From Saccharofermentanales bacterium (GTDB lineage: Bacteria > Bacillota > Clostridia > Saccharofermentanales > UBA5734), in contig JBBQKF010000001.1 of NCBI GenBank assembly GCA_038326615.1, positions 13,472-77,471 on the forward strand: a DNA stretch of 64,000 nt. Reading direction: 5' to 3'. Shown here in pieces: positions 25,661 to 51,467 of the stretch. The notes below the pieces were generated by a model. The model searched no databases and was not told the origin of the DNA. It worked only from the letters and a program-made list of their open reading frames with translations. How positions within the stretch are numbered: position 1 is the stretch's first letter; every line of letters begins with the position of its first letter. The position numbers and the translations under genes were made by a program.

Positions 25661-28318
<2,658 letters not shown>

Positions 28319-29306: not shown

Positions 29307-29615
29307 TCACTTATAAGAGCAGCAATAATCTGCAAATTTTGCTACAATAATTTTGAAACTCGAATTTTCAGGAACAATAAAGCTTTGACCTTCATTAAAA
29401 TTAGTATAAACGGATTCGCCTTTAATCATAATATCCATGTCCCCGCCTAAAACTTCCATCAATTCTTCAGTTGAAGTATTAAATTCGTACTCACCAGCTA
29501 ACATGAATCCTAAAGTTTTCTTGCTGCCATCTGCAAATTTTACTGTCCTGCTTGTAACTTTTCCATCAAAATACACATTTGCTTTCTTAACTACGCTCAC
29601 ATTATTAAATTCCAT
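29307..29615 (-). CDS. ppnP: Pyrimidine/purine nucleoside phosphorylase PpnP (DUF1255, cupin)
   Basis: 102 aa. [13 protein letters not shown]...[18 protein letters not shown]...F.VP..S.F follows E. coli PpnP/YaiE as I recall it. Confidence 0.8.
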
Positions 29616-29630
29616 ACGAGAATCCTCTTT

Positions 29631-30755
29631 CTATTTGGTTTTTTCGGCGATGGACTTTCTGTACTTTTCGCCTTCCCAGTTAGCAATAAAATCTTTACCA
29701 GCTTCGCTCATAGTACAAACCTTGCGTCCTGATTTTTCAATTGTCGAGGTTATGAAAATAACAGCAGTAAGGGTTTCTTCGATGGTCGATGCTTCGCCTC
29801 TGAGGCAATTATAAACTATGTCTCCGGTCTTGCGGTAAATTGTACATTTATTCTTTGCCCAATCCTGTCCATCTTGAGGTAATTCGGTATCAACTATTGT
29901 AATATTGCCGTTAAGGAAAACCATCTGGTCTGGATAAAGTGCATTTACACAGAAATAATCCATGTCATATATCGGATTTACAATCTGTTTTTTAAGCCAC
30001 GCAGTGTTTGAAATAAATAGGTTTTCTGCCTGTGATCCTTCTGTATTTTCAATTTCTTCAACAGATATAACAGGAAAGTCCTTTTCGGTGATTTTGAACT
30101 CAGAAGCAACAAGCTTGTTTACTTCCTCGTGAATTTTAAGGCATTCCTCAAGGTCGTCACTTGTCGCAATAAGTCCATGATTTTGCATGAAAATTGCTTT
30201 AGGCAACTTGCCTGTCTCACTTAATACACGTGCTTGTTCTGCTGCAATTGTAAAAGTTAAGTTTGCGCCTGGATTGATGTATGGAACATATCCGAAACTG
30301 TAATTTGCGTTCGCAAGAACTTTTGCGGCGATTTCACGGCCAGTTACGCAGCATGTTACAAAGTTTGCGTATACAGGATGAGTATGGAGAACATATTTTG
30401 ATAAAAGTGAATGAAATCCTGCCTCAACAGAAGGTCTCAATTCTGGTAAACCTTCGATTTTCTGAATTGAATTTTTTGCTACATCTGATCCTGCTTTTTC
30501 TACGTCCAAAAGAGTTGAAGGATCTGTGTTTTTGTAAAATTCCACTATCGACGCATAGGCAAGCACCGCATATGCATCATTTTCTTTGACCTGACTTAAA
30601 CGAAATCCTGATGCTTTGATAGCCATCAATTTATCATCGAATTTGCAGGATGTATTTCCACCGCCGCCTTGCACATAATCAATGCGTTTCCCAGGTTCTA
30701 CGGAAAGACGCACATAATTTTTAAGGGTTTCCTTGTTTTTTTCAAAAAAGCTCAT
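29631..30755 (-). CDS. Class II aldolase/adducin-domain protein (resembles the aldolase half of RhaEW/YuxG-type fusions)
   Basis: GGGGNTS, the HTHP zinc-ligand pair and the MQNHGLIATS block. It is about 150 aa longer at the C-terminus than a minimal class II aldolase. Start set at the ATG at 30755 (MSFFEKN), preceded by GAAAGGAAAG; the track start is at 30776. Confidence 0.75.
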   Translation of the reverse strand: MSFFEKNKETLKNYVRLSVEPGKRIDYVQGGGGNTSCKFDDKLMAIKASGFRLSQVKENDAYAVLAYASIVEFYKNTDPSTLLDVEKAGSDVAKNSIQKIEGLPELRPSVEAGFHSLLSKYVLHTHPVYANFVTCCVTGREIAAKVLANANYSFGYVPYINPGANLTFTIAAEQARVLSETGKLPKAIFMQNHGLIATSDDLEECLKIHEEVNKLVASEFKITEKDFPVISVEEIENTEGSQAENLFISNTAWLKKQIVNPIYDMDYFCVNALYPDQMVFLNGNITIVDTELPQDGQDWAKNKCTIYRKTGDIVYNCLRGEASTIEETLTAVIFITSTIEKSGRKVCTMSEAGKDFIANWEGEKYRKSIAEKTK

Positions 30756-31036
30756 TTTCACTTTCCTTTCATTCAATTAATTCTGATTTGCTAATCTATT
30801 ATTTTTTTTTATTATTACTATTATTATTCAACTCTTCCCATTTTTAAGTAACAGAAGTCAAATTTGCAAATATTTATTCGATTTACTAGTTAAAATACAA
30901 TTTCAATTTTTATAAAATGATTTGATTAGTATTTTTGAGATGGTAAGTTTTGGAAGCAATATTAACGCAGTACACAACCTTTAATACATAATTCTCGCTT
31001 TTCTAATTGGTTTTAACTTAATATATTATACAATTT

Positions 31037-32320
31037 TTATCTCTTTGACAATACATTTTCTTCGTACTCATGAACATCATTTAACCAGTCAGTTCCGGCA
31101 GGGACACCCATGTCAAGGCAATATTTATTCCATACAGCGCCAACAGGAAGCGAACGGAAGTCGTCCATCATAGCAAGACGATCACCAAAACGGCTCTCGA
31201 TTTCTGCTGTTTGAATTAAATCTGTTGGTTCAAGTAGTGCGCCAAGAATTGCTTTCTGTGTTGCTCTAGCTCCGATAACCCATGCAGATATACGGTTTAT
31301 AGATGCATCAAAGAAGTCAAGTGCAAGATGGACACGCTCGAAAGCATCAGCGCGTTTGATTTCGCGGATAACTTCCTGAACATCATCATTTGAAATTACA
31401 ACGTGGTCAGAATCCCAACGAACTCCGCGGCTTACATGAACGAGGATGTCTTTATTGAATAGCAACAAAGCACTGATTTTGTCAGCAATTGTTTCGGTTG
31501 GGTGGAAATGCCCCATATCAAGTGTTAACATAAGGTCTTCATTTCCTTTAGTTTTTGCATAGCCAAGATAGCTCATGTAAAATTCATGTGAACCAACAAC
31601 AAAACTTTCTGATCCAATTCCAAAAAGTTTAGATTCAAGGCCTTCAAGATAAACATCCGGAGATATGGTTTCTTCAAGAATCTCATCAAGTGAATCTTTG
31701 AGGAGCTTTCTGTAAAGAGTTTTGTTTGCAGTAAGATCCTTCATGCCGTCTGGAATCCATATGTTTGTGACACAGGCAGATCCACAGGCGCGTCCCATAT
31801 CGGCAGCTATACGACGGCTTGCTTTTACATGATCAATCCAGAAACGACGAATTTCATCTTTAGGATTTGAAAGTGTAAGATTATCAGCAGCCATTGGGTG
31901 TCCAAAACAAGAAGGGTTGAAATCAAGACCGATTTTTCTTGAAACTGCCCAGTCAATCCACTTTTGGAAATGCTTTGTCTCGTATTTATTACGATCAACT
32001 TTTTCACCTTCAAGTTCTGCATAACATGCATGAACATTAACTCTTTGCTTTCCTGGTAGAAGGCTCATTGTTTTATCTAAATCAGCACGAAGCTCCACAC
32101 CATCTCTTGATTTACCAGGGTAGTTTCCTGTTACCATAATACCACCGGATGTTCCACCAGAGCCGGCTTCAAGTCCTTGAATATCATCTCCCTGCCAGCA
32201 GTGAAGTGAAACTTCAATTGATTTCATCTTCTCAAGCACAGCCTCGACGTCTACACCATATTGAGAATAAAGGGTTTTAGCGGCTTCGTAAGCCAAATTG
32301 ACATTTTCTTTTGAATGCAT
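31037..32320 (-). CDS. rhaA: L-rhamnose isomerase (RhaA family)
   Basis: 427 aa, collinear with E. coli RhaA as I recall it: SLHCWQGDD, TGNYPGK, LDFNPSCF, NIWIPDGMKD, ESKLFGIG, GHFHPTE, VSRGVRWDSDHVV, LDFFDASINRI. Confidence 0.9.
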   Translation of the reverse strand: MHSKENVNLAYEAAKTLYSQYGVDVEAVLEKMKSIEVSLHCWQGDDIQGLEAGSGGTSGGIMVTGNYPGKSRDGVELRADLDKTMSLLPGKQRVNVHACYAELEGEKVDRNKYETKHFQKWIDWAVSRKIGLDFNPSCFGHPMAADNLTLSNPKDEIRRFWIDHVKASRRIAADMGRACGSACVTNIWIPDGMKDLTANKTLYRKLLKDSLDEILEETISPDVYLEGLESKLFGIGSESFVVGSHEFYMSYLGYAKTKGNEDLMLTLDMGHFHPTETIADKISALLLFNKDILVHVSRGVRWDSDHVVISNDDVQEVIREIKRADAFERVHLALDFFDASINRISAWVIGARATQKAILGALLEPTDLIQTAEIESRFGDRLAMMDDFRSLPVGAVWNKYCLDMGVPAGTDWLNDVHEYEENVLSKR

Positions 32321-32428
32321 TTTGAAATCCTCCCTTTTAATTTTTGCAAAATTTTACTTTTTAATGTGATCAAAGTATTGGTTTTTAATATAATCAAATT
32401 ATTTGTTTCTAAAATTAACAAAGCATCA

Positions 32429-32464
32429 GGCTTTTATGGTTTTTATGGTTTTATTGGTTTTTAT
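32429..32464. repeat. 9-bp tandem repeat x4 (GGYTTTTAT) upstream of rhaA
   Basis: ggcttttat ggtttttat ggttttatt ggtttttat. Confidence 0.85.
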
Positions 32465-32645
32465 GTATATTAAAATCTCAGATAACGAGTTAACAATAAC
32501 GAGCAACAGATTTGACTATGATATGGAATGTATAATGATTTATACCTTATTATGATTGAACAAGTAAATTATTTCAAGCAATTTTAAAAAAATATTATTT
32601 CTTTATCTAAAATTATTATAAGATCCCTATGAAATTCTTATGATG

Positions 32646-32724
32646 TTCTTATAAATTTCCTATAATAATCTTATAACAATTTTTTAAAGTTCATATAATA
32701 TTCTTACAAATTTCCTATAATAAT
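32646..32724. repeat. 24-bp direct repeat at 55-bp spacing, within an array of TTCTTATAA-like motifs
   Basis: ttcttataaatttcctataataat (32646-32669) and ttcttacaaatttcctataataat (32701-32724), 23 of 24 identical. Related ttcttat(g/a)a motifs begin at 32635 and 32744. Confidence 0.85.
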
Positions 32725-32757
32725 ATTTGGAAATCATATAAATTTCTTATAAAATTA

Positions 32758-34053
32758 TTATGAAAATCTCATCTTTGCATAATCTTTAAAAAACGCAATT
32801 CTCTTGTATAACGAAGGCATCTTTGACACTGTTTTGTCAGAGAACATCCCTTCTGAAAGATCAATAGTTGCACTCCATTCATGGCCAATAAGCGCCCATG
32901 CGGCATCAATAAGGTTTGCAAACTCAGGTTTACGCATTGCTTCACAGACGAATTTCTGTCGTGGTTGATTTATATCTTCACCACTTATTTGGAAAAACCC
33001 GTTCTTGTCACAATTAGCACGAAGTCTTTCGAGTTGTGCAGGTGTATTTCTAGAAGGCATATATGTTATTGAATTAAAGCCAGTCTCACGAATTGTATTA
33101 AACACATCATCAAGGAATTCATCTTCGAATTTTTGTGCTTTCTTATCGCCGGTAACTGATTCTGTAACATCTCCAAGGTATGCATATGCAAGAATTATTC
33201 CGTGTTTTTTTGTAAATGCTGCAACCTCGGCTATTGGAAGTGCTTCTTTTGTGGCAGGAATATAAAATTGTTCAACCATATTTCCTTTTAAAATATTTAA
33301 AAGGTCGTATTCATAAATTTCATTTGATTTGTCAAGAAGAAGCTCTCTGGTTTTACCTTTTACTGAGATATTAAGAGATTTCTCCATGAAATCAAGAAGT
33401 TTTTCACCTCTGCCAAACTGGGTTGTGAGTTTTTTTGCAACAGCATAAAGGAGATGCCTTTCGGTAACACTTCCTCCTTCATGAGCCATTGATAGGGGGA
33501 GAACGTCTAAATCATAATCAACTTCGATTCTTGCGGGCAAAAGAATTTTATTAATTTCAACTATCATTTCGCGATTTCTAATGCCACGGGCAACACAGAT
33601 AGGTGCAAAAAATTCTTTTAATGCAGGAATTGCTGTATGCGGAATTCCGTGCATTGCAACATATGCAACTGTATCCTGATCAGGATTGTTAATCCTTCGT
33701 CCATCAAGAATTGTTCCTGCAAATGTTGCCCTTACTTCAGCTCCGATAGTCGTAGGCATTCCCATTATAAGTCCTGCCTTAATAAATTCCTCGGCACCAC
33801 TAATTGAATCATGGTCCATAATCCCAGTTGTCAAAAGCCCTGTTTCCCATGAACGGTATACTGCTTTTGCCGGTGAATATGGTGAAAACGAGTAGATTGA
33901 ATGAATATGGCTGTTAACGTCATTTTGTCTTATTGGCGCAGAGATAAAACCTTTATCTACTGCATCTTTTAGCTTATTTAACGCAAGAAGCCTGTCATCC
34001 ATATTTGGTGCATTTAATTCTGATATTAGGATGTCGATTTCATTTTGTTCCAT
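32758..34053 (-). CDS. PHP-domain metal-dependent phosphoesterase
   Basis: 431 aa. N-terminal HxH (NSHIHSIYS) followed by GIMDHDSISG, typical of PHP-fold phosphoesterases. Good RBS (AAAGGAG). Confidence 0.7.
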   Translation of the reverse strand: MEQNEIDILISELNAPNMDDRLLALNKLKDAVDKGFISAPIRQNDVNSHIHSIYSFSPYSPAKAVYRSWETGLLTTGIMDHDSISGAEEFIKAGLIMGMPTTIGAEVRATFAGTILDGRRINNPDQDTVAYVAMHGIPHTAIPALKEFFAPICVARGIRNREMIVEINKILLPARIEVDYDLDVLPLSMAHEGGSVTERHLLYAVAKKLTTQFGRGEKLLDFMEKSLNISVKGKTRELLLDKSNEIYEYDLLNILKGNMVEQFYIPATKEALPIAEVAAFTKKHGIILAYAYLGDVTESVTGDKKAQKFEDEFLDDVFNTIRETGFNSITYMPSRNTPAQLERLRANCDKNGFFQISGEDINQPRQKFVCEAMRKPEFANLIDAAWALIGHEWSATIDLSEGMFSDKTVSKMPSLYKRIAFFKDYAKMRFS

Positions 34054-34116
34054 AAAAGTCTCCTTTTATAAAGTTTTAACACAATTAATCCGTGTAAAAA
34101 TTGTTTGGATGAAAGG

Positions 34117-34235
34117 AAAAACTTCGCAAGACAAGGCGCGGGAAGCTTCAAATGAAGGATCATATACATAACATGTGACTGAATTTGAAGCATTCCGCAA
34201 CGCAGTAAGTCATAAAATGACGATTGCGAAGTTTT
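34117..34235 (-). terminator. Long compound hairpin after the E1 gene (terminator or attenuator-like)
   Basis: Outer arms aaaacttcgcaa / ttgcgaagtttt, inner arms ggaagcttcaaat / atttgaagcattcc. It starts 12 nt after the E1 stop, and the minus strand follows the stem with UUUUU. Confidence 0.4.
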
Positions 34236-34247
34236 AACACATCCCGA

Positions 34248-36725: not shown

Positions 36726-36769
36726 TTCTATTACCTCCAATTATTTCAATTCTTTTTTCTTACTATTTA

Positions 36770-36862
36770 TTTTACTATTTTTTATTTCTCAATTTAATAC
36801 TTTTACTATTTTTTATTTCTCAATTTAATACTTTTACTTTTTTTATTTCTTAATTTAATAAC
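36770..36862. repeat. 31-bp tandem repeat x3 in the E3-E1 spacer
   Basis: ttttactattttttatttctcaatttaatac occurs twice exactly (36770-36800 and 36801-36831), followed by a diverged third copy. Confidence 0.9.
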
Positions 36863-36870
36863 TTTTTTAT

Positions 36871-36905
36871 ATTGTTTTCTTGTATTGTTTTCTTGTATTG
36901 TTATT
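36871..36905. repeat. 13-bp tandem repeat x2.7 (attgttttcttgt)
   Basis: Two exact copies (36871-36883 and 36884-36896) plus a partial third. Confidence 0.9.
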
Positions 36906-37097: not shown

Positions 37098-38459
37098 TTA
37101 TAATTGAAAAATGGCTTCGCGGATTATCTCGCAGACTGTAGGATGAGGAAAAATGAATTCTTTGATATCTTCAATTTTCATTTCAGTTTCAATAAGCATC
37201 GCTGCTGCAACTATAATTTCTGATGCATAACTTCCTATAATATGACATCCAATCATACGATTGCGAGAAGGCTCAACGAGAACTTTACAAATTCCGTCTC
37301 CGCCTTCATTTTCAGCCATGTAGCGGCCAGAATAATTCATGGAAATATTTGCCACCTTATATTCGATCCCTTTAGCTTTACAGGTTTCTTCTGTTTCACC
37401 GACACATCCAACTTCTGGATTTGTGTAAATAACTGAAGGAACCGCGTTGTAACGTACAACATCTTTTTTGCCCAAAATGTTATTAATTACAACTTCAGAT
37501 TCTCTGTAAGCTGCGTGAGCGAGCATCCATACACCATTAACATCACCTGTTGCAAAAACTCCTGGGACGTTTGTGTTTCCTTTGTCATCAACAACAATGT
37601 GTCCACGTTCTATAAGTACGCCTATATTTTCGAGTCCAAATCCTGCTGTTACAGGTCTTCTTCCGATCGACATTAGTACATACTCTGCTTCGATTAATTC
37701 TTTTTTACCATTATCTTCGTATTCTACGAAACCTTTTGGCATTCCTGTTACTTTACATAAAAGTTTAAATGTAACGCCCTTCTTCTCATAGTTTTTCTGA
37801 AGAATTGTTGAAATTTCACGGTCTGTTGGTCCTGCAATTTTCTCTAACATTTCTATAACAGTTACTTTAGATCCTACAGAGTTAAAATAACTTGCCATTT
37901 CAAGACCAATGACGCCTCCACCAACTACAACAAGTGATTTAGGTATGATTTCAAGGTTTAAAATTTCACGGTTAGTCATAACATAACCCTGCTCAAGACC
38001 GACTTTCGCTCCGGGAATTGGGGGTACAATTGCTTCAGAACCTGTACAAATTAGCAACTTTGATGTTTCTAAAATTTCATCACCAACTTTTACTTTGATG
38101 ACACCATTTTCACGGCTAACAATTTCGCCAAATCCTTCTTTAACAGTAACATGGTTTGCTTTCATCTGGCCTTTGATCCCGGCTACAAGGTTTTTAACAA
38201 CCTTATTTTTTCTTGCGATTACTGTTTTCTGGTCGATTGAAGCACCTGTTGTTGTTACGCCATATTTTTCACCGTGGTTTGCATAATCAAATATTTTAGC
38301 ACTGTTGAGTAAGGTTTTTGATGGTACACAGCCTTCATTAAGACAAACTCCGCCTAAAAAGCGTTTTTCTATTAGCAAAGTTTTAAGACCGCCATGACCT
38401 GAACGTTCAGCTGCAAGATATCCTGCAGGACCGCCGCCAAGAATAATTATATCGTACAT
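37098..38459 (-). CDS. lpdA: Dihydrolipoyl dehydrogenase (E3)
   Basis: 453 aa. GGGPAGY FAD motif, the redox disulfide GGVCLNEGCVPSK and a C-terminal HPT.E interface motif. Confidence 0.95.
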   Translation of the reverse strand: MYDIIILGGGPAGYLAAERSGHGGLKTLLIEKRFLGGVCLNEGCVPSKTLLNSAKIFDYANHGEKYGVTTTGASIDQKTVIARKNKVVKNLVAGIKGQMKANHVTVKEGFGEIVSRENGVIKVKVGDEILETSKLLICTGSEAIVPPIPGAKVGLEQGYVMTNREILNLEIIPKSLVVVGGGVIGLEMASYFNSVGSKVTVIEMLEKIAGPTDREISTILQKNYEKKGVTFKLLCKVTGMPKGFVEYEDNGKKELIEAEYVLMSIGRRPVTAGFGLENIGVLIERGHIVVDDKGNTNVPGVFATGDVNGVWMLAHAAYRESEVVINNILGKKDVVRYNAVPSVIYTNPEVGCVGETEETCKAKGIEYKVANISMNYSGRYMAENEGGDGICKVLVEPSRNRMIGCHIIGSYASEIIVAAAMLIETEMKIEDIKEFIFPHPTVCEIIREAIFQL

Positions 38460-38472
38460 CGTTATATCCTTT

Positions 38473-40236
38473 CTAGTTCATAAGGAGAAGTGAAAAATTC
38501 TCCAAAGTATCTTTAAGGTCTTTAAGGAATCTTGCTGCAGGGGCACCGTCAAGTGCGCGATGGTCAAAAGTAAGTGATAATCCCATTGACTGATAAGGAA
38601 CAGCAGTTCCATTGACATTTTTTACTGCAGTTACAAGGCATCCAACCCCAAGTATACATGTCTGAGGTGGATTGATAACCGGTGTAAAGTTTTCGATTCC
38701 GAGTGTTCCGAGATTTGTAATTGTTATAGTTCCGTCTTTTAACTGATCAGGAGATATTGTGCCTTTCTGACATGCAGCCGCAACTTCCTTTGCTTTCTTA
38801 GAAATATCTGTAATAGCAAGTTTGTCAGCGCCAAAAATTGTAGGTACTAAAAGTCCTCTTGGTGTATCTACTGCCATTCCTATGTTTACGGTATTGAAAA
38901 ACACCATCTTTTCATCATAGTAATGTGCATTGCATAAGCGATGGTTCTTAACAACTCTTGATACTGCATAAAGGATAACATCGTTAAATGTTGGGTTTGC
39001 CATTGCAAGAGAAAGTCCTAATTGCTCTGCCAATCCTGATTCTTTCGCTTTTTTCATTTTTGCACGGAAATCAATAATGTCAGTTGCATCAAAGCTTGCA
39101 TTGAGTGTAAGTTGAGCCATTGTACTAAGTGAAGCGTGCATTGCTTTAGCAATAAATTTACGGATGGAAGGATGTTTCTCTTCATATGAAGCAGGAAGAT
39201 CTATAGCAGCAACTGATCCAACAACATTTACTGTTGCTTTAGATAAATCCGCGACACTTACTCTTCCGCCTATTCCGCTTCCTTGAGTGCCAGTTGCATA
39301 ATCAGTTCCAACAGCTCCGGTTGCAAACTTTCCATCGGCAATTAACTTACGAATATCTCTTTCGATAACTCTTCCTTTTGGTCCTGAAGGTTGTACTGCT
39401 CTTAAATCAACAACATTCTTGTTAGCAAGAGCTTTTGCTCTTGGAGAAATTGCAAGGCCCGAAACATCAGTGACAGTGGATGAAACCGCCTTATTGTCAG
39501 TGGTTTGAACAGCAGCTGTTGATTGAGTTGATGTTTGCGCTGTTGTTGTAGCAACTTGTGCTACAGGAGCTGATACTTGTTGCTCTGAAGTGGTTGTTCT
39601 TGGTTCAAATGCTGTAACATCGGCGCCTTTTTTGCCAATTACACAGACATTCATAAGACATGGGACATCATCGCCTTCTTCAAAGAAAATCGCAAGCATA
39701 TCGCCTGAAACTTTTGAAGTTTCGTCAAATGTAGCCTTATCTGTTTCGTATGTAAATAAAAGATCTCCAATTGCTACGCTATCGCCAACAGCCTTGTGCC
39801 ATTTGCCGATAATGCAGCTTTCGACTGATTGACCTTGTCTTGGCATGATTACTGCAGTTGCATCGTCTGATGTACTAACGATTGTTTTAGTTGCATCGGC
39901 AAATTTAGCTGCTTGTGGAGCAGAAACCTTTGCTGTTTCAGCTACTGGTGAATCAATAGTAGTTGATGAATTTGGATTAAATGAAGAAGTATCTTCGCCA
40001 ATTTGTCCTATCACACATACATTTGTGAGGCATGGAACGTCATCTCCTTCAAAGAAGTAAACGTCAAGCATAACTCCTGAAACTTTTGATGTTTCATCAA
40101 ATGTTGCTTTGTCAGTTTCATATGTAAAAAGCAAATCTCCCTCGTTAATAGCATCTCCTTTGGATTTGTGCCATTTTCCGATGATGCAGCTTTCGACTGA
40201 CTGACCTTGTCTTGGCATGATTACTGGTGTTGCCAT
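38473..40236 (-). CDS. Dihydrolipoamide acyltransferase (E2) with two lipoyl domains
   Basis: 587 aa. The lipoyl-lysine motif ETDKATFDE occurs twice. There is a peripheral subunit-binding domain (ISPRAKALA) and a catalytic DHRALDG motif. Confidence 0.9.
   Translation of the reverse strand: MATPVIMPRQGQSVESCIIGKWHKSKGDAINEGDLLFTYETDKATFDETSKVSGVMLDVYFFEGDDVPCLTNVCVIGQIGEDTSSFNPNSSTTIDSPVAETAKVSAPQAAKFADATKTIVSTSDDATAVIMPRQGQSVESCIIGKWHKAVGDSVAIGDLLFTYETDKATFDETSKVSGDMLAIFFEEGDDVPCLMNVCVIGKKGADVTAFEPRTTTSEQQVSAPVAQVATTTAQTSTQSTAAVQTTDNKAVSSTVTDVSGLAISPRAKALANKNVVDLRAVQPSGPKGRVIERDIRKLIADGKFATGAVGTDYATGTQGSGIGGRVSVADLSKATVNVVGSVAAIDLPASYEEKHPSIRKFIAKAMHASLSTMAQLTLNASFDATDIIDFRAKMKKAKESGLAEQLGLSLAMANPTFNDVILYAVSRVVKNHRLCNAHYYDEKMVFFNTVNIGMAVDTPRGLLVPTIFGADKLAITDISKKAKEVAAACQKGTISPDQLKDGTITITNLGTLGIENFTPVINPPQTCILGVGCLVTAVKNVNGTAVPYQSMGLSLTFDHRALDGAPAARFLKDLKDTLENFSLLLMN
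39627..40226 (-). repeat. 372-bp-period internal duplication encoding the two near-identical lipoyl domains of E2
   Basis: tggcatgattactg occurs at 39841-39854 and again at 40213-40226. The flanking nucleotides and the encoded VIMPRQGQSVESCIIGKWHK...LLFTYETDKATFDETSKVSG are nearly identical in both copies. Confidence 0.85.
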
Positions 40237-40314
40237 TTATTATTCCTCCTGTTTCTATTACGAAATATTATAGACCGCATATCGCATTGAAATGCGGATT
40301 GTTTTAGAAAGTTC

Positions 40315-41529
40315 TTAACTTAGCATGCTCTGTCCGCCAGTTACAGGAATTGCCTGTCCTGTCTCATAAAGCTGTTCAACACAATAGAAAATCGCTCTTG
40401 AAACATCTTTTGGAGAGCAGCCTCTGCGTATGGGAGACTTTGCTAAATAGAAATTTTTAACATCATCAATTGTTTTTGCTCCTGGAACTTTTCCTGCCTT
40501 CAGATATTGTACAAAAAGGCCCTTTTCTGGGTCACTCCAAAGAGGACCTTCATAAAAATTACCTGGGCAGATTGAATTGACTTTGATATTGTCAGTAACT
40601 AGTTCAAGTGCAAAGCTTTGTGTAAGGCCAATTCCGCCGAATTTTCCGCCAGCATATGCAAAATTCTTGTTTGAACCTTCAAGTCCAGATTTTGAATTAA
40701 TCTGAACAATATCTGACCAGCTATCAGCATTTACAAGTGCTTGAACTTTCATAGGTCTTGCAGCGTATTTAGCGCAAAGGTAGTATGCGGTATAATTAAC
40801 TTTTGTTACAAATTCAAAGTTTGCCATTGTCATTTCTTCAAGCCCACCTGCTTTAAGAACCCCGGCATTGCTGACAAATACGTCAAGTCCGCCAAATTCA
40901 AGAACAGTTTTCTCAATCATTTCTCGAACAGAATCTTCGTCAGATACATTAACCTTAACTGCAATAGCACTTCCCTCGCCAAATTGTGCATTGATTTTGT
41001 CTGCACCAGTTTTTGCAAGTTCTTCATTAAGATCAGCAATTACCATGTATGATCCTTCGTTAACCATTTCTAAAGCAATACCTTCACCAAAGCCTTGTGC
41101 ACTGCCTGTTACAATAGCAATTTTGCCAGAAAGTCTTCCGCAGGGTGTGCAGCATTTCTCTGAATCAATATTGTATTTTTCGCCTTTGAGGAAACAATTT
41201 CTTGCATAATCAGCATCAGCTTTTGATTCTCCGATTATAAAAGTGCCTATCGACTCAACTGCAATAATTCTAAGGTCGGTGTTTATATTAAATTGATCTG
41301 TTATCCCGTTATAAATTGCTTCAAAACTTTCGTCGAATTCAATTATAACTCCATCCATTTCTGTAAGATCAAATTTCCTGTTTAAATCTTCTGCACTAAG
41401 AGTTTTGAATTCGTCAGTAAATACTACAACTGGGTAAATACCTTCTTTAGAGCAAAGCATTCTGACTGCAGGGGCTATTGCTGCTGCTGTTGTTATATCA
41501 CTTTGCACTTTATCTAAATAGTGTTTCAT
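40315..41529 (-). CDS. Short-chain dehydrogenase (sorbitol-6-phosphate dehydrogenase/SrlD-like) with an unassigned N-terminal domain of about 140 aa
   Basis: The C-terminal 260 aa follow E. coli SrlD as I recall it (VTGSAQGFG, QINSKSG, YAGGKFGGIGLTQSFALEL, PIRRGC, TGQAIPVTGGQSMLS). I recognise nothing in the N-terminal part. Start set at the ATG at 41529, after GGAGGG. Confidence 0.8.
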   Translation of the reverse strand: MKHYLDKVQSDITTAAAIAPAVRMLCSKEGIYPVVVFTDEFKTLSAEDLNRKFDLTEMDGVIIEFDESFEAIYNGITDQFNINTDLRIIAVESIGTFIIGESKADADYARNCFLKGEKYNIDSEKCCTPCGRLSGKIAIVTGSAQGFGEGIALEMVNEGSYMVIADLNEELAKTGADKINAQFGEGSAIAVKVNVSDEDSVREMIEKTVLEFGGLDVFVSNAGVLKAGGLEEMTMANFEFVTKVNYTAYYLCAKYAARPMKVQALVNADSWSDIVQINSKSGLEGSNKNFAYAGGKFGGIGLTQSFALELVTDNIKVNSICPGNFYEGPLWSDPEKGLFVQYLKAGKVPGAKTIDDVKNFYLAKSPIRRGCSPKDVSRAIFYCVEQLYETGQAIPVTGGQSMLS

Positions 41530-41687
41530 TTTTCCCTCCATAATTTAGCCATCCCAAAACCTGAATTTATTCAGATTCCTAATCTATTTGAAATTAATTT
41601 CAATCAATTATTTACCAATCAACTATTTGCCATTCAATTTGGAATTGAATCATTGAAAATGTTATTTAATTTAATAGTTTGTGGCTT

Positions 41688-41900
41688 GTACTAATGCGTT
41701 GTACTAGTGCGTTGTACTAGTGCGTTGTCTAGTGCGTTGTACTAGTGCGTTGTACTAGTGCGTTGTACTAGTGCGTTGTACTAGTGCGTTGTACTAGTGC
41801 GTTGTCTAGTGCGTTGTTCTAGTGCGTTGTACTAGTGCGTTGTTCTAGTGCGTTGTACTAGTGCGTTGTTCTAGTGCGTTGTACTAGTGCGTTGTACTAG
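41688..41900. repeat. 13-bp tandem repeat, 16 full copies plus a partial one (GTACTAGTGCGTT and variants)
   Basis: Counted unit by unit. Variants are gtctagtgcgtt (12 bp, twice), gttctagtgcgtt (three times) and gtactaatgcgtt (once). The final partial unit gtactag contains the TAG stop (41897-41899) of the upstream dehydrogenase gene. Confidence 0.97.
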
Positions 41901-43162
41901 ATGCTCTTTGCATTAGCAAGAAGATAAAGCTCTGCGTCATAACACCATAATCCATTATTTGCATCGGTTATGTCTGCAAGTTTTGCAAAGACAGGGTCAG
42001 TTTCACCTAATTTTCTAAAATCGGCTATTGCAGTCAATTGCATTGCAATTTGTGTATATATAAGTTTTTTGCCACCTGGGATTTTAGGGAGATTAAGTGT
42101 TGTATGAATAACTGCATCAAGGCCGCCAACATGTGTGATCATAGATGATGGATTGATTATTCCAGTTGACATCATATGAAGTGCTTCAATCATATCGTCT
42201 GTGTTTCCACCGCTATTGCCTGCAACGTGAGTTGCAATATAATGAACATTATAGAAATTAAACTCAGCGCTAAATGCTGTGTTTGTAGGACCGGCAAAGA
42301 AATTGAGGCATCCGTCCTGACCTAAGATTTTATCTCCTTGCTCAACAACTGGCTTAACTGGTGCATATACATAAACATCATCATAACCTTTATCATCTGT
42401 AAGTGATCTTAAGTATGCAGGCACATCTTCGTATTTTGAAGTATTGACATAAATAAGTTTAACACCATTTTTAGCTGCTTCTTCAACAGTATAAATTGAT
42501 GCTGCTCTTGCAAGTCTTGTCTCGTCAATATCAGTTACAACAAGCATTCCAGGTTTTCTGTTACAGTGAATAGCGTAATCTATAGCGCCAAGGCCCATAG
42601 GTCCTACACCTGCAAGAAGAGCCATGTTTCCACCTTCGACGATACCCATCTGATGTACATAACTACCAGGATTTGTATGGTAATTAACATGGAATCCACC
42701 TACGATACATGACATTGGTTCTGATAATGAACCGAAATAGAATGCTTCACCTACATAATTTAATAAACATCCGCGCTCCATAAATTTTGCGGGAATTACT
42801 ATATAAGTTGCAGCACCCCCGATATTATGAAATGAATAGCCTGGTGCTGCATAGATGTTTTCTGGATCGTTTATTGCTGGTTGGATTGAAAACTTAGCGC
42901 CAACTTTGAATTTATCGGCCCATTTTGCGCCAACTTGTACAAATTCTCCACAAAACTCATGACCAACAATTACAGGATTTGTTGCGATATCTTCTGGTAC
43001 TCTTTTGTGTTCTGCGCCCTGTTCTGCTGCTTTATAGGTTGACATACAAATGCTGTCAGAGATTATTTTCGCTAGTATCTCGTCGTCTTTAATCTGGGGA
43101 AGTTCAAATTCTTCCAGTCTTAGGTCTTCTTTTCCATACAATCTTACTGCTTTTGTTTTCAT
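41897..43162 (-). CDS. Zinc-dependent medium-chain dehydrogenase, long form (L-sorbose-1-phosphate reductase/SorE-like)
   Basis: About 421 aa. GHEFCGEFVQVG zinc-ligand block and a GVGPMGLGAIDYA Rossmann motif. The length matches the roughly 410-aa ketose-1-phosphate reductase subgroup rather than the roughly 345-aa ADHs. Start set at the ATG at 43162, after GGAGG. Confidence 0.8.
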   Translation of the reverse strand: MKTKAVRLYGKEDLRLEEFELPQIKDDEILAKIISDSICMSTYKAAEQGAEHKRVPEDIATNPVIVGHEFCGEFVQVGAKWADKFKVGAKFSIQPAINDPENIYAAPGYSFHNIGGAATYIVIPAKFMERGCLLNYVGEAFYFGSLSEPMSCIVGGFHVNYHTNPGSYVHQMGIVEGGNMALLAGVGPMGLGAIDYAIHCNRKPGMLVVTDIDETRLARAASIYTVEEAAKNGVKLIYVNTSKYEDVPAYLRSLTDDKGYDDVYVYAPVKPVVEQGDKILGQDGCLNFFAGPTNTAFSAEFNFYNVHYIATHVAGNSGGNTDDMIEALHMMSTGIINPSSMITHVGGLDAVIHTTLNLPKIPGGKKLIYTQIAMQLTAIADFRKLGETDPVFAKLADITDANNGLWCYDAELYLLANAKSI

Positions 43163-43398
43163 AATTTTTTCCTCCAAAAATTTTGTGTGTACTCTCAATT
43201 TTGTTTTATTTTTTTCTAACATTACTTACGTTTTTCATATTTCATTTTATTTCAATATTTTTACTCATTACACTCCACTGTTTTATAGTCGTTTAGAAAT
43301 TATTCCTGTTAAATGCTTTTTTAATTCTGGTTTTTCCTTAAGGCATGAAATATTATTATTTTAAAATACAAATATTATTGTTCAGTGGTGAAAATTTC

Positions 43399-44157
43399 TT
43401 AAATAACGGTAACTCTTGCTTGCTTTGCAGCTTTAAGATATTCATGTGAAAGTGGATTATCCGTTATAAGAATATCGACATCTCCTAGTTTAGCGAATGT
43501 GTAAGGCATTCCGCAGTCAACCTTAGAGGCGTCCATTAACATAACAGTTGTCTGAGCCTTCTTGATAATAAGGCGTTTAATTTCTGCTTCAAAATAATCA
43601 CCACATGTAAATCCGCTATTAAGCGAAAACGCACTCGCAGCCATAAATGCAATATCAATATTTAACGATTTAATATACTCAGTTGCATTATATCCTGATA
43701 AAGAAAGTGTGTCTCTATTAAGCTGACCGCCTGTAAGGCTAACTCTGACGTTGTGATATTTAATTAATTCCATTGCAATGTTCGGGGCTGAAGTTAACAC
43801 AAATAGATTTTCATCATTTAACTTTTGTGCAAAACACATTCCTGTTGTTCCAGAATCAATAAATAATGATCTGCCAGCAGTAACAAATTTGGATGCTTTC
43901 TCAGCTATAATCATTTTTGCTTCGGTGTTTTCACCTACGCGCTGAGTATATGCTGCTTCTTTAAGCATAGAAAGATGTGCTATTGATTTAGCGCCGCCAC
44001 GTGTTCTAACAATTTCACCACGCTGTTCAAGATACTCAAGATCACGACGGATTGTCATGCTTGATACATCAGGCAAAAGATTCTCAAGTTCAACGAATCG
44101 AACTTCGCCTTTTGACTGAATATAAAGATTAATTACTTCTCTTCTGTTTGTTGACAC
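43399..44157 (-). CDS. DeoR-family transcriptional regulator
   Basis: 252 aa. N-terminal HTH (VSSMTIRRDLEYLEQRGEIVRTRGGA) plus a DeoR C-terminal sugar-phosphate sensor domain. GTG start preceded by AAGGAGGGG. Confidence 0.9.
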   Translation of the reverse strand: MSTNRREVINLYIQSKGEVRFVELENLLPDVSSMTIRRDLEYLEQRGEIVRTRGGAKSIAHLSMLKEAAYTQRVGENTEAKMIIAEKASKFVTAGRSLFIDSGTTGMCFAQKLNDENLFVLTSAPNIAMELIKYHNVRVSLTGGQLNRDTLSLSGYNATEYIKSLNIDIAFMAASAFSLNSGFTCGDYFEAEIKRLIIKKAQTTVMLMDASKVDCGMPYTFAKLGDVDILITDNPLSHEYLKAAKQARVTVI

Positions 44158-51436: not shown

Positions 51437-51467
51437 ATTCACGAAACTGCATTCAGTAAGAAAGGAT

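What the first reader, a model, noticed from the sequence alone, without database searches (positions are those of the whole stretch)
29307..44157. Composite DeoR-headed locus embedding a full lipoamide/TPP dehydrogenase complex among sugar isomerase, aldolase and polyol-phosphate dehydrogenase genes
**Gene order.** All ten genes are co-oriented on the minus strand:
1. DeoR regulator.
2. Long-form Zn dehydrogenase (SorE-like).
3. SrlD-like SDR with an unknown N-terminal domain.
4. E2 with two lipoyl domains.
5. E3.
6. Fused E1 alpha-beta.
7. PHP phosphoesterase.
8. RhaA-type isomerase.
9. Class II aldolase.
10. PpnP.

**Why this is unusual.** Known rhamnose routes use RhaA, RhaB kinase and RhaD, or RhaEW, often under a DeoR-type RhaR in Bacilli. 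Here there is no FGGY kinase, mutarotase or transporter. Acetoin/pyruvate-type E1-E2-E3 complexes are not part of any characterised deoxyhexose or hexitol pathway that I know of.

**Working hypothesis (inference only).** An alpha-hydroxy-carbonyl fragment released by the aldolase or dehydrogenases, of the lactaldehyde, acetol or acetoin-like type, is cleaved or oxidised by the TPP-lipoamide complex to an acyl-CoA. The PHP enzyme would remove a phosphate. The spacers between genes are filled with tandem repeats, and the coding regions look more G+C-rich by eye than the flanks, so the locus could be a mosaic or recently assembled island.
Basis: inference. Interest (0 to 1): 0.75.

Follow-up and report, generated by a model that had tools for sequence, protein, structure and literature searches.

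The report
Rhamnose-linked operon with dedicated lipoamide complex
Uncultured anaerobic bacteria from digesters, rumen and gut carry a conserved sugar-breakdown operon with its own pyruvate-dehydrogenase-like enzyme complex, which probably turns part of a deoxy-sugar such as rhamnose directly into acetyl-CoA by a route nobody has described.

Summary
The gene set is not a chance juxtaposition. The order E2-E3-fused E1 is invariant in 80 species-level loci from Clostridia and Bacteroidales. It recurs with the SorE-like Zn dehydrogenase, the SrlD-like SDR, a RhaE-like aldolase, the PHP phosphoesterase and DeoR. In two species (L091, L092), gene calls show nine genes, including RhaA and rhamnulokinase, forming one tight operon with gaps of 123 nt or less. 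AldII and the SDR are the two halves of a RhaEW-type bifunctional enzyme, which is fused in other genomes. The fused E1 is a distinct clade: 52% identical to plasmid genes of Rhizobium and Agrobacterium, against about 31% to any other E1. In those alpha-proteobacteria it sits with an AcoC-type acyltransferase, a sugar kinase and a SorC regulator. The complex therefore most likely cleaves a sugar-derived ketol, not housekeeping pyruvate. My specific guess is a 1-deoxy-ketose phosphate split into acetyl-CoA plus an aldose phosphate; this is inference only. PpnP is a passenger. The tandem repeats are genome-wide, and the "island" reading is not supported. I found no published pathway for this gene set.

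The parts
44206..44336 (-). Promoter-like site (TTGCAA, 18 nt, TAAAAT with a TG; 44336-44307), followed by an array of seven AACAT[TG]/[CA]ATGTT hexamers spaced 11, 13, 21 or 22 nt apart (44206-44295). This is a candidate DeoR operator.
   Evidence: The promoter match is. The hexamer array is the densest in the window: 7 in 175 nt against 0.43 in shuffles. The promoter and motif are conserved upstream of deoR in L086 and L088. A related TGTTAACAATTAACA motif overlaps the operon promoter in eight other species.
43399..44157 (-). DeoR-family regulator, 252 aa
   Evidence: HTH_DeoR plus DeoRC. An orthologue lies next to E2-E3-E1 in 22 of 40 fully flanked loci.
41897..43162 (-). SorE/YggP-family Zn dehydrogenase (ketose-1-phosphate reductase type), 421 aa
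   Evidence: 47% identical over its full length to Klebsiella SorE and 54-55% to E. coli YggP. The Cys/His/Glu catalytic-zinc ligand motif is seen. Present in 23 of 40 loci at 60-82% identity.
41686..41900 (.). 13-nt tandem repeat of 16.7 copies in the ZnDH-SDR spacer, reaching the ZnDH stop codon
   Evidence: TRF score 388. It is absent from the compact relatives.
40315..41541 (-). SrlD-like SDR (residues 136-408) with an N-terminal domain derived from the middle region of fused aldolase/SDR enzymes
   Evidence: NCBIfam SrlD scores 233 bits. The best solved relative is 5o3z, E 2e-44. The N-terminal domain matches fused proteins at hhalign probability 97.4%. The SDR part is 57-64% identical to the SDR half of the fused Bacteroidales proteins.
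38473..40236 (-). E2 dihydrolipoyl acyltransferase with a duplicated lipoyl domain
   Evidence: Pfam. It has two ETDKA lipoyl motifs and a DHRALDG catalytic motif. The duplication has a 372-nt period. Relatives have a single lipoyl domain (448-470 aa).
37098..38459 (-). E3 dihydrolipoyl dehydrogenase
   Evidence: TIGR01350 scores 470 bits against a cut-off of 409. The CLNEGC redox motif is present.
34248..36725 (-). Fused E1 alpha-beta TPP enzyme, 825 aa, belonging to a distinct clade
   Evidence: Pfam. The GDG TPP motif, GHSPSD and HSQ are present. At least 592 stretches in the species-representative genomes encode a relative. It is 50-52% identical to fused E1 genes on alpha-proteobacterial plasmids; the next relatives are 32% or less.
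34054..34247 (-). Structured spacer between E1 and PHP: nested inverted repeats followed by a U-rich run
   Evidence: RNA fold of -51.2 kcal/mol, z = -4.26. Function unknown.
32758..34053 (-). PHP-fold phosphoesterase with a helical insert, 431 aa
   Evidence: AF2 model with pLDDT 93.6. The best folds are TrpH/YciV-type PHP phosphoesterases, including the Cv1693 nucleotide bisphosphate phosphatase. Present in 11 of 40 loci.
31037..32320 (-). L-rhamnose isomerase RhaA
   Evidence: NCBIfam PRK01076 scores 630 bits against a cut-off of 572. It occupies the same position, between PHP and AldII, in L006/L091, L009, L011/L092, L013 and L015.
29631..30755 (-). RhaE-like class II aldolase, 374 aa
   Evidence: Aldolase_II. 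The GGGNTS, PSVE, HTH and NHG motifs are retained. It aligns with residues 22-393 of fused aldolase/SDR proteins at probability 100%.
29307..29615 (-). PpnP nucleoside phosphorylase. It is co-oriented and only 15 nt after AldII, but is not part of the conserved set.
   Evidence: Pfam Ppnp. It was found only in this genome's own contig (L001); relatives have RhaB or unrelated genes at this position.

Best explanation
This is a DeoR-controlled catabolic operon for rhamnose-type (6-deoxyhexose) sugar phosphates. A dedicated lipoamide/TPP complex is built into the pathway.

**Shown**
- The E2-E3-fused E1 core is conserved.
- ZnDH, the SDR, AldII, PHP, DeoR and lipoylation genes recur with that core.
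- RhaA and rhamnulokinase lie inside the same operon in relatives.
- AldII and the SDR are a split RhaEW-type enzyme.
- ZnDH belongs to the SorE/YggP family.

**Inferred**
- The complex does not serve as housekeeping pyruvate dehydrogenase.
- Like acetoin dehydrogenase, its E1 cleaves the C-C bond next to the carbonyl of a sugar-derived ketol. It passes the two-carbon unit through lipoamide to CoA. This gives acyl-CoA (most likely acetyl-CoA), NADH and an aldehyde fragment.

**The concrete route I think most likely**
1. RhaA, plus a RhaB encoded elsewhere in this genome, make L-rhamnulose-1-P.
2. The aldolase, by retro-aldol and aldol steps through DHAP and L-lactaldehyde, supplies a 6-deoxy-L-ketose-1-P of sorbose configuration.
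3. The SorE-like enzyme reduces C2.
4. The SrlD-like SDR oxidises the carbon next to the methyl group, giving 1-deoxy-D-fructose-6-P.
5. The complex splits this into acetyl-CoA and erythrose-4-P.
6. PHP acts as a sugar (bis)phosphate phosphatase downstream.

This route would capture the methyl end of the sugar as acetyl-CoA instead of excreting propanediol.
For: **Conservation**
- The E2-E3-E1 order holds in all 80 loci. Among 40 loci with at least 8 kb on both sides, ZnDH occurs in 23, the SDR in 22, DeoR in 22, AldII in 12, PHP in 11 and RhaA in 4.
- L092 has ZnDH-SDR-E2-E3-E1-PHP-RhaA-AldII-RhaB with gaps from -8 to 39 nt. L091 has the same order. L086 has the eight-gene form, with gaps of 22-152 nt, at the same chromosomal site as the window.
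- The kinase scores as rhamnulokinase: 512-520 bits against a cut-off of 528.

**Module identities**
- AldII and the SDR occur as one fused protein in Bacteroidales and in some Clostridia.
- ZnDH is 47% identical to SorE. The SDR is closest to SrlD.

**E1 clade and its partners**
- Fused orthologues at 50-52% identity in Rhizobium, Agrobacterium and Pleomorphomonas sit beside a split AcoC (a lipoyl protein plus an alpha/beta hydrolase; NF011457 at 153-202 bits).
- They also sit beside a PfkB kinase or XylB, a ketose-3-epimerase-like protein and a SorC regulator.
- All other E1s are 32% identical or less.

**Accessory genes and other variants**
- Lipoate ligase or LipB plus LipA travel with the cluster.
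- Other variants link the complex to a 2-keto-3-deoxy-L-rhamnonate-type aldolase with a transaldolase-family protein (L003), and to a XylB-like kinase (L058).

**Regulation**
- A conserved promoter and operator motif links DeoR to the operon across species.

**Plausibility of the intermediate**
- 1-deoxyfructose-6-P is a documented metabolite of gut anaerobes (PMC13450708).
Against: - No enzyme was assayed, and the E1 substrate cannot be read from its sequence.
- The catalytic motifs are the same as in PDH E1, and the best HMM matches are PDH models, though below their cut-offs.
- 14 of 40 loci carry only E2-E3-E1, with or without DeoR or LplA and with no accessory sugar gene nearby. One of them, L017, is syntenic with the full operon. 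This fits a substrate that is generally available, such as pyruvate.
- Alistipes L077 has RhaA, RhaB, AldII-SDR and the complex, but no ZnDH within 22 kb.
- The RhaEW precedent predicts lactate, not a ketol (PMC3870299).
- In the window the spacers are long (176-437 nt), so co-transcription of all ten genes is not shown.
- RhaB is absent from the window.
- The role of PHP is a guess.
Confidence: 0.5

Rival explanations
1. **Pyruvate dehydrogenase.** The complex is an NAD-dependent PDH placed in sugar operons. RhaA, RhaB and the split RhaEW-type enzyme give DHAP and L-lactate. Both become pyruvate, which the complex oxidises to acetyl-CoA. ZnDH and PHP have side roles, for example in redox balancing.
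For: - The best HMM matches of E1 and E2 are PDH models, and the catalytic motifs are PDH-like.
- Minimal DeoR-E2-E3-E1 loci are common.
- RhaEW produces lactate, and some rhamnose regulons are extended by lactate dehydrogenases to reach pyruvate (PMC3870299).
- L003 carries an aldolase that releases pyruvate next to the complex.
Against: - All PDH models score below their cut-offs: 196 against 394, and 231 against 321.
- Orthologues at 52% identity in aerobic alpha-proteobacteria pair with an acetoin-type AcoC and a sugar kinase in one operon.
- It does not explain the tight linkage of a SorE-family enzyme (23 of 40 loci).
- The cluster carries its own lipoylation genes and varies among close relatives, which suggests an accessory trait.
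- From established knowledge, strict anaerobes of these groups normally use PFOR or PFL.
Confidence: 0.2
2. **C3-level ketol.** The aldolase releases L-lactaldehyde. The dehydrogenases convert it to acetol or methylglyoxal. The complex cleaves that to acetyl-CoA plus a C1 unit (formaldehyde or formate).
For: - Three independent lactaldehyde-producing contexts lie next to the complex: RhaE-like aldolases, a KDR-type aldolase, and the Alistipes RhaA/RhaB locus. In Alistipes the complex stands where other Bacteroidales have lactaldehyde reductase.
- The AldII-SDR fusion suggests that the SDR acts on the aldolase product.
Against: - ZnDH belongs to a family that acts on phosphorylated ketoses.
- The regulators and kinases point to phosphorylated intermediates.
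- The route would produce toxic C1 or dicarbonyl intermediates.
- The alpha-proteobacterial clusters have no aldolase.
Confidence: 0.15
3. **Acetoin/2,3-butanediol cleavage.** This would be an ordinary acetoin and butanediol system, with ZnDH and the SDR as butanediol dehydrogenases, that happens to sit next to rhamnose genes.
For: - From established knowledge, acetoin dehydrogenase is the known lipoamide complex of strict anaerobes.
- The SDR has secondary matches to acetoin reductases.
- The alpha-proteobacterial partners are AcoC-like.
Against: - ZnDH is 47-55% identical to SorE and YggP but only about 25% to butanediol dehydrogenase.
- The SDR is far closer to SrlD (E 2e-44 against 4e-30).
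- The set includes a DeoR or SorC regulator, kinases, the aldolase and PHP, and in two species RhaA and RhaB lie in one tight operon with the complex.
Confidence: 0.07
4. **Chance juxtaposition.** This would be a recently assembled mosaic of unrelated genes.
For: - The window has long, repeat-filled spacers.
- Gene content varies among close relatives.
- RSCU correlates somewhat less well with the rest of the window (0.90 against a baseline of 0.98).
Against: - The same set recurs in different gene orders in two phyla and as compact operons.
- GC3 equals that of the flanks.
- Repeats also occur outside the locus.
Confidence: 0.02

Closest known systems
Acetoin dehydrogenase enzyme system (AcoA/AcoB/AcoC/AcoL)
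   Same: - Both are TPP E1 alpha/beta plus lipoyl E2 plus E3 systems, and both occur in strict anaerobes.
- Orthologues of this fused E1 in alpha-proteobacteria use an AcoC-type lipoyl protein and alpha/beta-hydrolase acyltransferase.
- The proposed chemistry is the same: cleavage next to a carbonyl, with acyl transfer to CoA.
   Different: - Here E1 is a single fused chain, about 31% identical to split Aco/PDH-type E1s.
- The neighbours are sugar-phosphate enzymes, kinases and DeoR or SorC regulators rather than butanediol dehydrogenases.
- The substrate is unknown.
Pyruvate dehydrogenase complex (PdhA/B/C/D type)
   Same: The domain architecture, catalytic motifs and best HMM matches agree.
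   Different: - All PDH equivalog scores fall below their cut-offs.
- The complex is embedded in, and regulated with, a sugar operon.
- It carries its own lipoylation genes.
- Its orthologues coexist with housekeeping PDH in alpha-proteobacteria.
RhaA-RhaB-RhaEW rhamnose pathway (Rodionova et al. 2013, PMC3870299)
   Same: - RhaA scores above its cut-off.
- Rhamnulokinase is present in relatives.
- The class II aldolase plus SDR pair is homologous to the bifunctional aldolase/SDR.
- A DeoR-type regulator is present.
   Different: - The aldolase and SDR are split in this genome, each keeping a copy of the middle domain.
- TIGR02632 scores only 255 bits against a cut-off of 568 for the fused relatives.
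- The SDR is nearer to SrlD than to RhaW.
- The operon adds a SorE-like enzyme, a PHP phosphoesterase and a whole E1-E2-E3 complex.
L-sorbose pathway SorE/SorD (Klebsiella sor operon) and E. coli cmtBA-yggP-yggF
   Same: - ZnDH is 47% identical to SorE and 54-55% to YggP.
- It pairs with a hexitol-6-P-dehydrogenase-like SDR, as SorE pairs with SorD.
- yggP sits next to a sugar bisphosphatase, as ZnDH here sits with PHP.
   Different: - There is no PTS.
- The SDR is only 26% identical to SorD.
- The enzyme is coupled to a lipoamide complex.
'Anhydroglycolysis' via 1-deoxyfructose-6-P (YbiW/PflD plus FSA-type aldolases; review PMC13450708)
   Same: It shows that a phosphorylated 1-deoxy-ketose is a real intermediate of sugar breakdown in gut anaerobes. 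A transaldolase/FSA-family gene also sits next to the complex in L003.
   Different: - There is no glycyl radical enzyme here.
- The known route cleaves DF6P to GAP and hydroxyacetone by an aldolase. An oxidative lipoamide-dependent cleavage is my inference, not a known reaction.

Membership tests
2-oxoacid/acetoin dehydrogenase complexes (E1-E2-E3) | E1 with a TPP-binding motif and the catalytic His residues of the alpha and beta parts | tested here: met
   A GDG...NVMDNQ motif, GHSPSD and AQHSQD are present. The Pfam domains E1_dh, Transket_pyr and Transketolase_C are present.
2-oxoacid/acetoin dehydrogenase complexes (E1-E2-E3) | E2 with a lipoyl-lysine motif and a DHRxxDG catalytic motif; E3 with a redox-active CxxxxC | tested here: met
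   Two ETDKA motifs, DHRALDG and CLNEGC are present. TIGR01350 scores above its cut-off.
Pyruvate dehydrogenase (equivalog level) | Score above the curated NCBIfam cut-offs for PDH E1 alpha, E1 beta and E2 | tested here: not met
   E1 alpha scores 196 against 394, E1 beta 231 against 321, and E2 295 against 445.
Pyruvate dehydrogenase (equivalog level) | Oxidative decarboxylation of pyruvate | not testable with these tools
   This needs an enzyme assay.
Acetoin dehydrogenase system | Genetic linkage to acetoin or butanediol dehydrogenases and an acetoin-responsive regulator | tested here: not met
   ZnDH is SorE/YggP-like (47-55%) and only about 25% identical to butanediol dehydrogenase. The regulator is a DeoR.
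Acetoin dehydrogenase system | AcoC-type (lipoyl plus alpha/beta hydrolase) acyltransferase partner | tested here: inconclusive
   This holds for the alpha-proteobacterial orthologues (NF011457 at 153-202 bits). The window uses a classical 2-oxoacid_dh E2 instead.
L-rhamnose isomerase RhaA | Full-length match above the curated cut-off | tested here: met
   PRK01076 scores 630 bits against 572, and TIGR01748 scores 588 against 585.
RhaEW bifunctional rhamnulose-1-P aldolase / lactaldehyde dehydrogenase | Class II aldolase half with three zinc-binding His residues, joined to an SDR half | tested here: met
   The HTH and NHG motifs are present. The window's AldII and SDR both align to fused proteins. 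Fused forms occur in L031, L044, L064, L066, L071, L077 and L081.
RhaEW bifunctional rhamnulose-1-P aldolase / lactaldehyde dehydrogenase | Score above the TIGR02632 cut-off (equivalog) | tested here: not met
   The fused relative scores 255 bits against 568. The window's SDR scores 161 bits and its AldII 39 bits.
SorE/YggP ketose-1-phosphate reductase family | Full-length similarity to SorE of a sor operon, with the catalytic zinc ligands | tested here: met
   47% identity over 419 aligned positions, E 2e-137. The sor operon context was checked. The Cys...His-Glu motif is present. Activity was not tested.
Sorbitol-6-phosphate dehydrogenase SrlD | Score above the curated cut-off | tested here: not met
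   233 bits against 307. It is still the nearest family and the nearest solved structure (5o3z).
PHP (TrpH/YciV-type) metal phosphoesterases | PHP barrel fold with an HxH motif and further invariant His, Asp and Glu residues | tested here: met
   Foldseek finds 3o0f, 3e0f, 2yb1 and 9etk at E 1e-12 to 1e-9, with target-normalised TM scores near 0.7. H49, H51, D80, H81, E106, H135, H139, H200 and H391 are invariant. Pfam scores 24.7 bits against 26.4. The substrate is unknown.
DeoR-family sugar(-phosphate) repressors | HTH_DeoR plus the DeoRC sensor domain | tested here: met
   No equivalog cut-off was reached. The effector is unknown.

The most novel reading that the evidence does not exclude
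The fused-E1 complex would be the first lipoamide-dependent dehydrogenase complex whose substrate is a sugar phosphate. It would oxidatively cleave 1-deoxy-ketose phosphates (1-deoxy-D-fructose-6-P, and DXP-like compounds) into acetyl-CoA plus erythrose-4-P or GAP. This is in effect the reverse of the DXS carboligation, coupled to lipoamide. It would define a carbon-conserving route for fermenting rhamnose and other deoxy or anhydro sugars. That route would replace propanediol excretion in many uncultured gut, rumen and digester anaerobes, and would also be present on rhizobial plasmids.
Probability: 0.25. Interest if true: 0.9.

Novelty: new variant of a known kind. Interest (0 to 1): 0.72.

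Why it matters
**Carbon flow in anaerobic communities.** Rhamnose and fucose are major deoxy-sugars of pectin, mucin and microbial polysaccharides. Their anaerobic breakdown is thought to end in propanediol or lactate. A widespread operon that sends part of the sugar through a lipoamide complex to acyl-CoA would change predicted carbon, ATP and hydrogen budgets in gut, rumen and biogas communities. At least 592 stretches in the species-representative genomes encode a relative of the E1.

**Genome annotation.** The operon would give a function to several families that pipelines now name only from generic similarity: "alpha-ketoacid dehydrogenase subunit alpha/beta", "zinc-binding dehydrogenase" and "PHP domain-containing protein".

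**Enzymology.** If the substrate is a sugar phosphate, the reaction scope of a textbook enzyme family is extended.

**Testability.** The Rhizobium johnstonii 3841 pRL8 orthologue offers a cultured, genetically tractable system in which to test this.

Tried and rejected
- **Island or mosaic origin.** I compared GC, GC3 and RSCU with 40 other genes of the window. GC3 is equal, so I rejected recent foreign origin.
- **Terminators and promoters between genes.** The scans found no more sites than in shuffles, and no minus-strand terminator lies in a spacer. This is uninformative about transcription units.
- **A missing kinase or lipoylation genes elsewhere in the window.** None were found.
- **Rfam.** Nothing passes the gathering thresholds. 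The only hit is a sub-threshold T-box before valS.
- **PHP function from its fold.** This shows only a generic TrpH-type phosphoesterase with an insert. The afdb50 library was unavailable.
- **Literature searches.**
  - I searched for the gene set, fused E1, the pRL8 locus tags, yggP/sorE and Saccharofermentanales PDH.
  - No characterised pathway turned up.
  - The yggP/sorE search was swamped by the word "sore".
- **Reading the E1 substrate from active-site motifs.** The motifs are shared with PDH and BCKDH, so I abandoned this.
- **Butanediol dehydrogenase for ZnDH.** Rejected on identity (25% against 47-55%).
- **PpnP plus aldolase as a 5-deoxyribose (DHAP-shunt) module.** Rejected, because PpnP is not conserved with the cluster.
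- **Operator copies inside the locus.** None were found.

Full report
**1. Observation**

The region 29307-44157 holds ten co-oriented minus-strand ORFs.
- DeoR.
- A Zn-dependent MDR dehydrogenase.
- An SDR behind a roughly 135-aa N-terminal extension.
- An E2 with two lipoyl domains.
- An E3 (TIGR01350, above its cut-off).
- A fused E1 with E1_dh, Transket_pyr and Transketolase_C.
- A weak PHP match.
- RhaA (630 bits against a cut-off of 572).
- A class II aldolase.
- PpnP.

Catalytic motifs are intact, so these are not pseudogenes:
- Two ETDKA lipoyl sites and DHRALDG in E2.
- CLNEGC in E3.
- The GDG TPP motif, GHSPSD and HSQ in E1.
- Cys/His/Glu zinc ligands in ZnDH.
- GGGNTS, PSVE, HTH and NHG in the aldolase.

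Gene calls in relatives shorten three ORFs: ZnDH to 421 aa, E1 to 825 aa and AldII to 374 aa.

The flanks are unrelated housekeeping genes:
- On one side lie valS, behind a T-box leader, and the dcw cluster.
- On the other side lie an alpha/beta hydrolase, a GNAT and a cation-efflux gene.

tblastn with the rhamnulokinase, LplA, LipB-like and LipA proteins of relatives found no match anywhere in the 64 kb. The organism is a low-G+C member of the Bacillota. Its nearest named relatives are Saccharofermentanales MAGs.

**2. Is the gene set meaningful?**

A scan of one genome per species returned at least 592 stretches that encode a relative of the fused E1. I kept the best 80. All are MAGs of Clostridia or Bacteroidales from digesters, rumen and gut, at 65-89% identity.

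tblastn of the ten window proteins against these loci gave the following:
- E2-E3-E1 occurs in that order everywhere.
- ZnDH is present at 60-82% identity.
- The SDR, DeoR, PHP and AldII recur around the core in several different gene orders.

| Gene | Present in loci with at least 8 kb on both sides (n = 40) |
|---|---|
| E2 | 40 |
| E3 | 39 |
| ZnDH | 23 |
| SDR | 22 |
| DeoR | 22 |
| AldII | 12 |
| PHP | 11 |
| RhaA | 4 |

Gene calls for two species (L091, L092) show one compact operon: ZnDH-SDR-E2-E3-E1-PHP-RhaA-AldII-FGGY kinase. The gaps in L092 run from -8 to 39 nt, and DeoR and a lipoate ligase are divergent. The kinase scores as rhamnulokinase, at 512-520 bits against a cut-off of 528.

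Two close relatives carry shorter versions at the same chromosomal site as the window:
- L086 has the eight-gene form without RhaA or PpnP, with 22-152 nt gaps.
- L088 has the five-gene form, DeoR-ZnDH-E2-E3-E1.

The set is therefore modular. It has an invariant core, a frequent SorE-like partner and optional feeder genes. It is clearly not a chance juxtaposition. PpnP occurs only in this genome and is a passenger. Lipoate ligase (14 loci), or LipB-like plus LipA, travel with the cluster.

**3. What the parts are**

- **ZnDH.**
  - It is 47% identical over its full length to Klebsiella SorE (L-sorbose-1-P reductase). I verified that this SorE lies in a sor operon with SorC, an SDR and a PTS.
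  - It is 54-55% identical to E. coli YggP, which sits between the cmt PTS and a class II bisphosphatase.
  - It is only about 25% identical to butanediol dehydrogenase.
- **The SDR domain.**
  - Its closest family and closest solved structure are sorbitol-6-P dehydrogenase (233 bits; 5o3z at E 2e-44, against 4e-30 for acetoin reductase).
  - In Bacteroidales and some Clostridia this same SDR (57-64% identical) is the C-terminal half of a 655-671-aa bifunctional aldolase/SDR.
  - Profile alignment shows that the window's AldII covers residues 22-393 of those proteins. The N-terminal domain of the window's SDR matches residues 242-354 (probability 97.4%).
  - AldII and the SDR are therefore a split RhaEW-type enzyme. 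RhaEW is known to cleave rhamnulose-1-P and to oxidise lactaldehyde to lactate (PMC3870299).
- **PHP.** The protein models confidently (pLDDT 93.6). It resembles TrpH/YciV-type PHP phosphoesterases, including a nucleotide bisphosphate phosphatase, and carries a large helical insert.
- **E1.**
  - PDH and BCKDH structures match at E 1e-54 (beta part) and 1e-22 (alpha part).
  - No NCBIfam equivalog cut-off is reached.

**4. The E1 clade outside these phyla**

tblastn against plasmids found fused orthologues at 50-52% identity over the whole length in Rhizobium johnstonii 3841 pRL8, other rhizobia, Agrobacterium pAt15955 and Pleomorphomonas. Every other E1 was 32% identical or less.

In those plasmids the gene heads a small operon that contains:
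- A 78-aa lipoyl protein.
- An alpha/beta hydrolase. Together with the lipoyl protein it corresponds to the acetoin-type acyltransferase AcoC (NF011457 at 153-202 bits).
- A PfkB fructokinase-like kinase, or a divergently transcribed xylulokinase next to it (463 bits against a cut-off of 380).
- A SorC-family regulator.

This operon lies next to sugar ABC transporters, RbsD/FucU, a ketose-3-epimerase-like protein, a mannitol-dehydrogenase-family gene and lipA.

These aerobes are expected to have housekeeping PDH (established knowledge; I did not check it in these genomes). This clade is therefore specialised and tied to phosphorylated sugars, and it uses an acetoin-type partner. That is the strongest argument that the Clostridial complex is not simply PDH.

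Other Clostridial variants point the same way:
- A XylB-like kinase with PHP (L058).
- Mannitol-1-P dehydrogenase.
- PGI.
- In L003 and L004, a transaldolase-family protein, two SDRs and a 2-keto-3-deoxy-L-rhamnonate-type aldolase around E2-E3-E1.

**5. Regulation and transcription in the window**

A promoter-like site lies upstream of deoR (TTGCAA, 18 nt, TAAAAT; 44336-44307). It is conserved in L086 and L088.

The densest array of AACAT[TG]/[CA]ATGTT hexamers in the window follows it. There are seven in 175 nt, spaced 11, 13, 21 or 22 nt apart, against 0.43 in shuffles.

A related TGTTAACAATTAACA motif overlaps the -35 and -10 elements of the operon promoter in eight further species. One of these is a minimal DeoR-E2-E3-E1 locus. 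This is a candidate DeoR operator, and it ties the regulator to the complex itself.

Inside the window's locus I found no further operator copies and no terminator-like hairpins in the spacers. Most genes have good Shine-Dalgarno sequences. The spacers are long, at 176-437 nt. The E1-PHP spacer folds into a stable structure (z = -4.26). A second promoter before rhaA is possible. Co-transcription of all ten genes is therefore plausible by comparison with relatives, but it is not shown.

**6. The "island" idea**

Tandem repeats do fill five spacers. Comparable arrays also occur elsewhere in the window, and compact relatives lack them. They are therefore a trait of this AT-rich genome.

The locus genes are slightly richer in G+C than 40 other genes (0.380 against 0.358). 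GC3 is the same (0.266 against 0.258, p = 0.72).

Cross-phylum transfer of the module in the deeper past is likely. E1 is 65-68% identical between Bacteroidales and Clostridia, and the cluster carries its own lipoylation genes. I see no sign of recent acquisition here.

**7. Mechanism**

*Shown.* This is a conserved, DeoR-linked operon that combines rhamnose entry enzymes, a split RhaEW-type aldolase/SDR, a SorE-family reductase, a PHP phosphoesterase and a dedicated lipoamide complex of a distinct E1 clade.

*Inferred.* The complex cleaves a sugar-derived ketol in the manner of acetoin dehydrogenase and delivers acyl-CoA.

*The route I favour* uses each family in its canonical regiochemistry:
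1. L-rhamnulose-1-P is re-formed, through DHAP and L-lactaldehyde, into 6-deoxy-L-sorbose-1-P.
2. The SorE-like enzyme reduces it to 1-deoxy-D-glucitol-6-P, as SorE does with sorbose-1-P.
3. The SrlD-like SDR oxidises it to 1-deoxy-D-fructose-6-P, as SrlD does with glucitol-6-P.
4. The complex splits this DXP homologue into acetyl-CoA and erythrose-4-P.

This scheme also accommodates three other observations:
- The XylB-E1 clusters: 1-deoxyxylulose to DXP, then to acetyl-CoA plus GAP.
- The transaldolase/FSA-family neighbour in L003.
- The alpha-proteobacterial pairing of an epimerase with a 6-kinase.

1-deoxyfructose-6-P is a documented intermediate in gut anaerobes (PMC13450708).

The scheme does not explain the Alistipes locus, which lacks ZnDH. 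It does not explain the many minimal loci. It leaves PHP as a guessed bisphosphatase.

I put about 0.5 on the general statement and about 0.25 on the 1-deoxy-ketose phosphate version.

**8. Rivals**

- **PDH after a RhaEW-type lactate route (about 0.2).** It fits the minimal loci and the HMM similarity. It fails on the alpha-proteobacterial orthologues and on the ZnDH linkage.
- **Ordinary acetoin/butanediol utilisation (about 0.07).** The identities of ZnDH and the SDR contradict it.
- **Chance mosaic (about 0.02).**

**9. Novelty**

The components belong to known families, and the rhamnose entry steps are known. I found no description of the combination with a dedicated fused-E1 lipoamide complex, a SorE-family enzyme and this PHP family, although the searchable library is incomplete. 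I rate it a new variant of a known kind. There is a realistic chance that the E1 reaction is new chemistry for this enzyme class.

Noticed in passing
window 28932-29191 (-): A T-box leader (RF00230, 64.5 bits, E 2e-13, below the gathering score of 93) lies upstream of a conserved 89-aa ORF (28345-28614) and valS (25661-28318). It has its own promoter-like site at 29238-29210. It marks the downstream end of the locus.
   Followed up: partly
window 34054-34247 (-): The E1-PHP spacer folds into a long nested hairpin (AAAACUUCGCAA...UUGCGAAGUUUU; -51.2 kcal/mol, z = -4.26) followed by a U-rich run. It could be an attenuator, a terminator or an mRNA-stabilising element. A similar CGCAATCGTCAT string follows AldII in relative L086.
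   Followed up: partly
window 41686-41900: A 13-nt unit (TTGTACTAGTGCG, which contains the palindrome ACTAGT) is repeated 16.7 times at 95% match and runs into the ZnDH stop codon. Other spacer arrays are a 31-nt unit x3.6 at 36770-36880, an 11-nt unit x14.5 at 32608-32767, and a 7-nt unit x20.7 at 20274-20418 outside the locus.
   Followed up: partly
window 39589-40233: The lipoyl domain of E2 is duplicated (372-nt period, 73-93% DNA identity, identical ETDKA motifs). Close relatives have a single lipoyl domain (448-470 aa).
   Followed up: yes
window 51087-52184: A highly repetitive stretch (66-nt unit x3.1, TTA/TGTTAT runs) lies inside overlapping ORFs on both strands. It may be a low-complexity protein or a non-coding repeat.
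   Followed up: no
L003 and L004 (JAIFKU010000098.1, CAZALA010000001.1): These loci are labelled Accumulibacter and Propionivibrio and have G+C of 0.57-0.65. They carry an E1 that is 82-87% identical to the window's (window G+C 0.35), within a different accessory set: a transaldolase-family protein, two SDRs and a KDR-type aldolase. The cause is either cross-phylum transfer or mis-binning.
   Followed up: partly
L082 (Rhizobium johnstonii 3841 pRL8, 81899-88718): On the pea-rhizosphere plasmid, next to the homoserine genes, lies an uncharacterised operon. It encodes fused E1, a lipoyl protein, an AcoC-like hydrolase, a PfkB kinase and a SorC regulator, with a ketose-3-epimerase-like gene and two sugar ABC transporters. 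It is a cultured, tractable system for this E1 clade.
   Followed up: partly
window 29307-29630: PpnP starts 15 nt after AldII, so the two are probably co-translated. This adjacency occurs only in this genome. A link to deoxy-nucleoside or 5-deoxyribose salvage was considered but has no support from conservation.
   Followed up: partly
L090 (E. coli cmtB-cmtA-yggP-glpX-like-fumE-yggC): The closest cultured-organism homologue of ZnDH (YggP, 54-55% identical) sits between a cryptic mannitol-family PTS and a class II sugar bisphosphatase. This parallels the ZnDH plus PHP pairing here.
   Followed up: no
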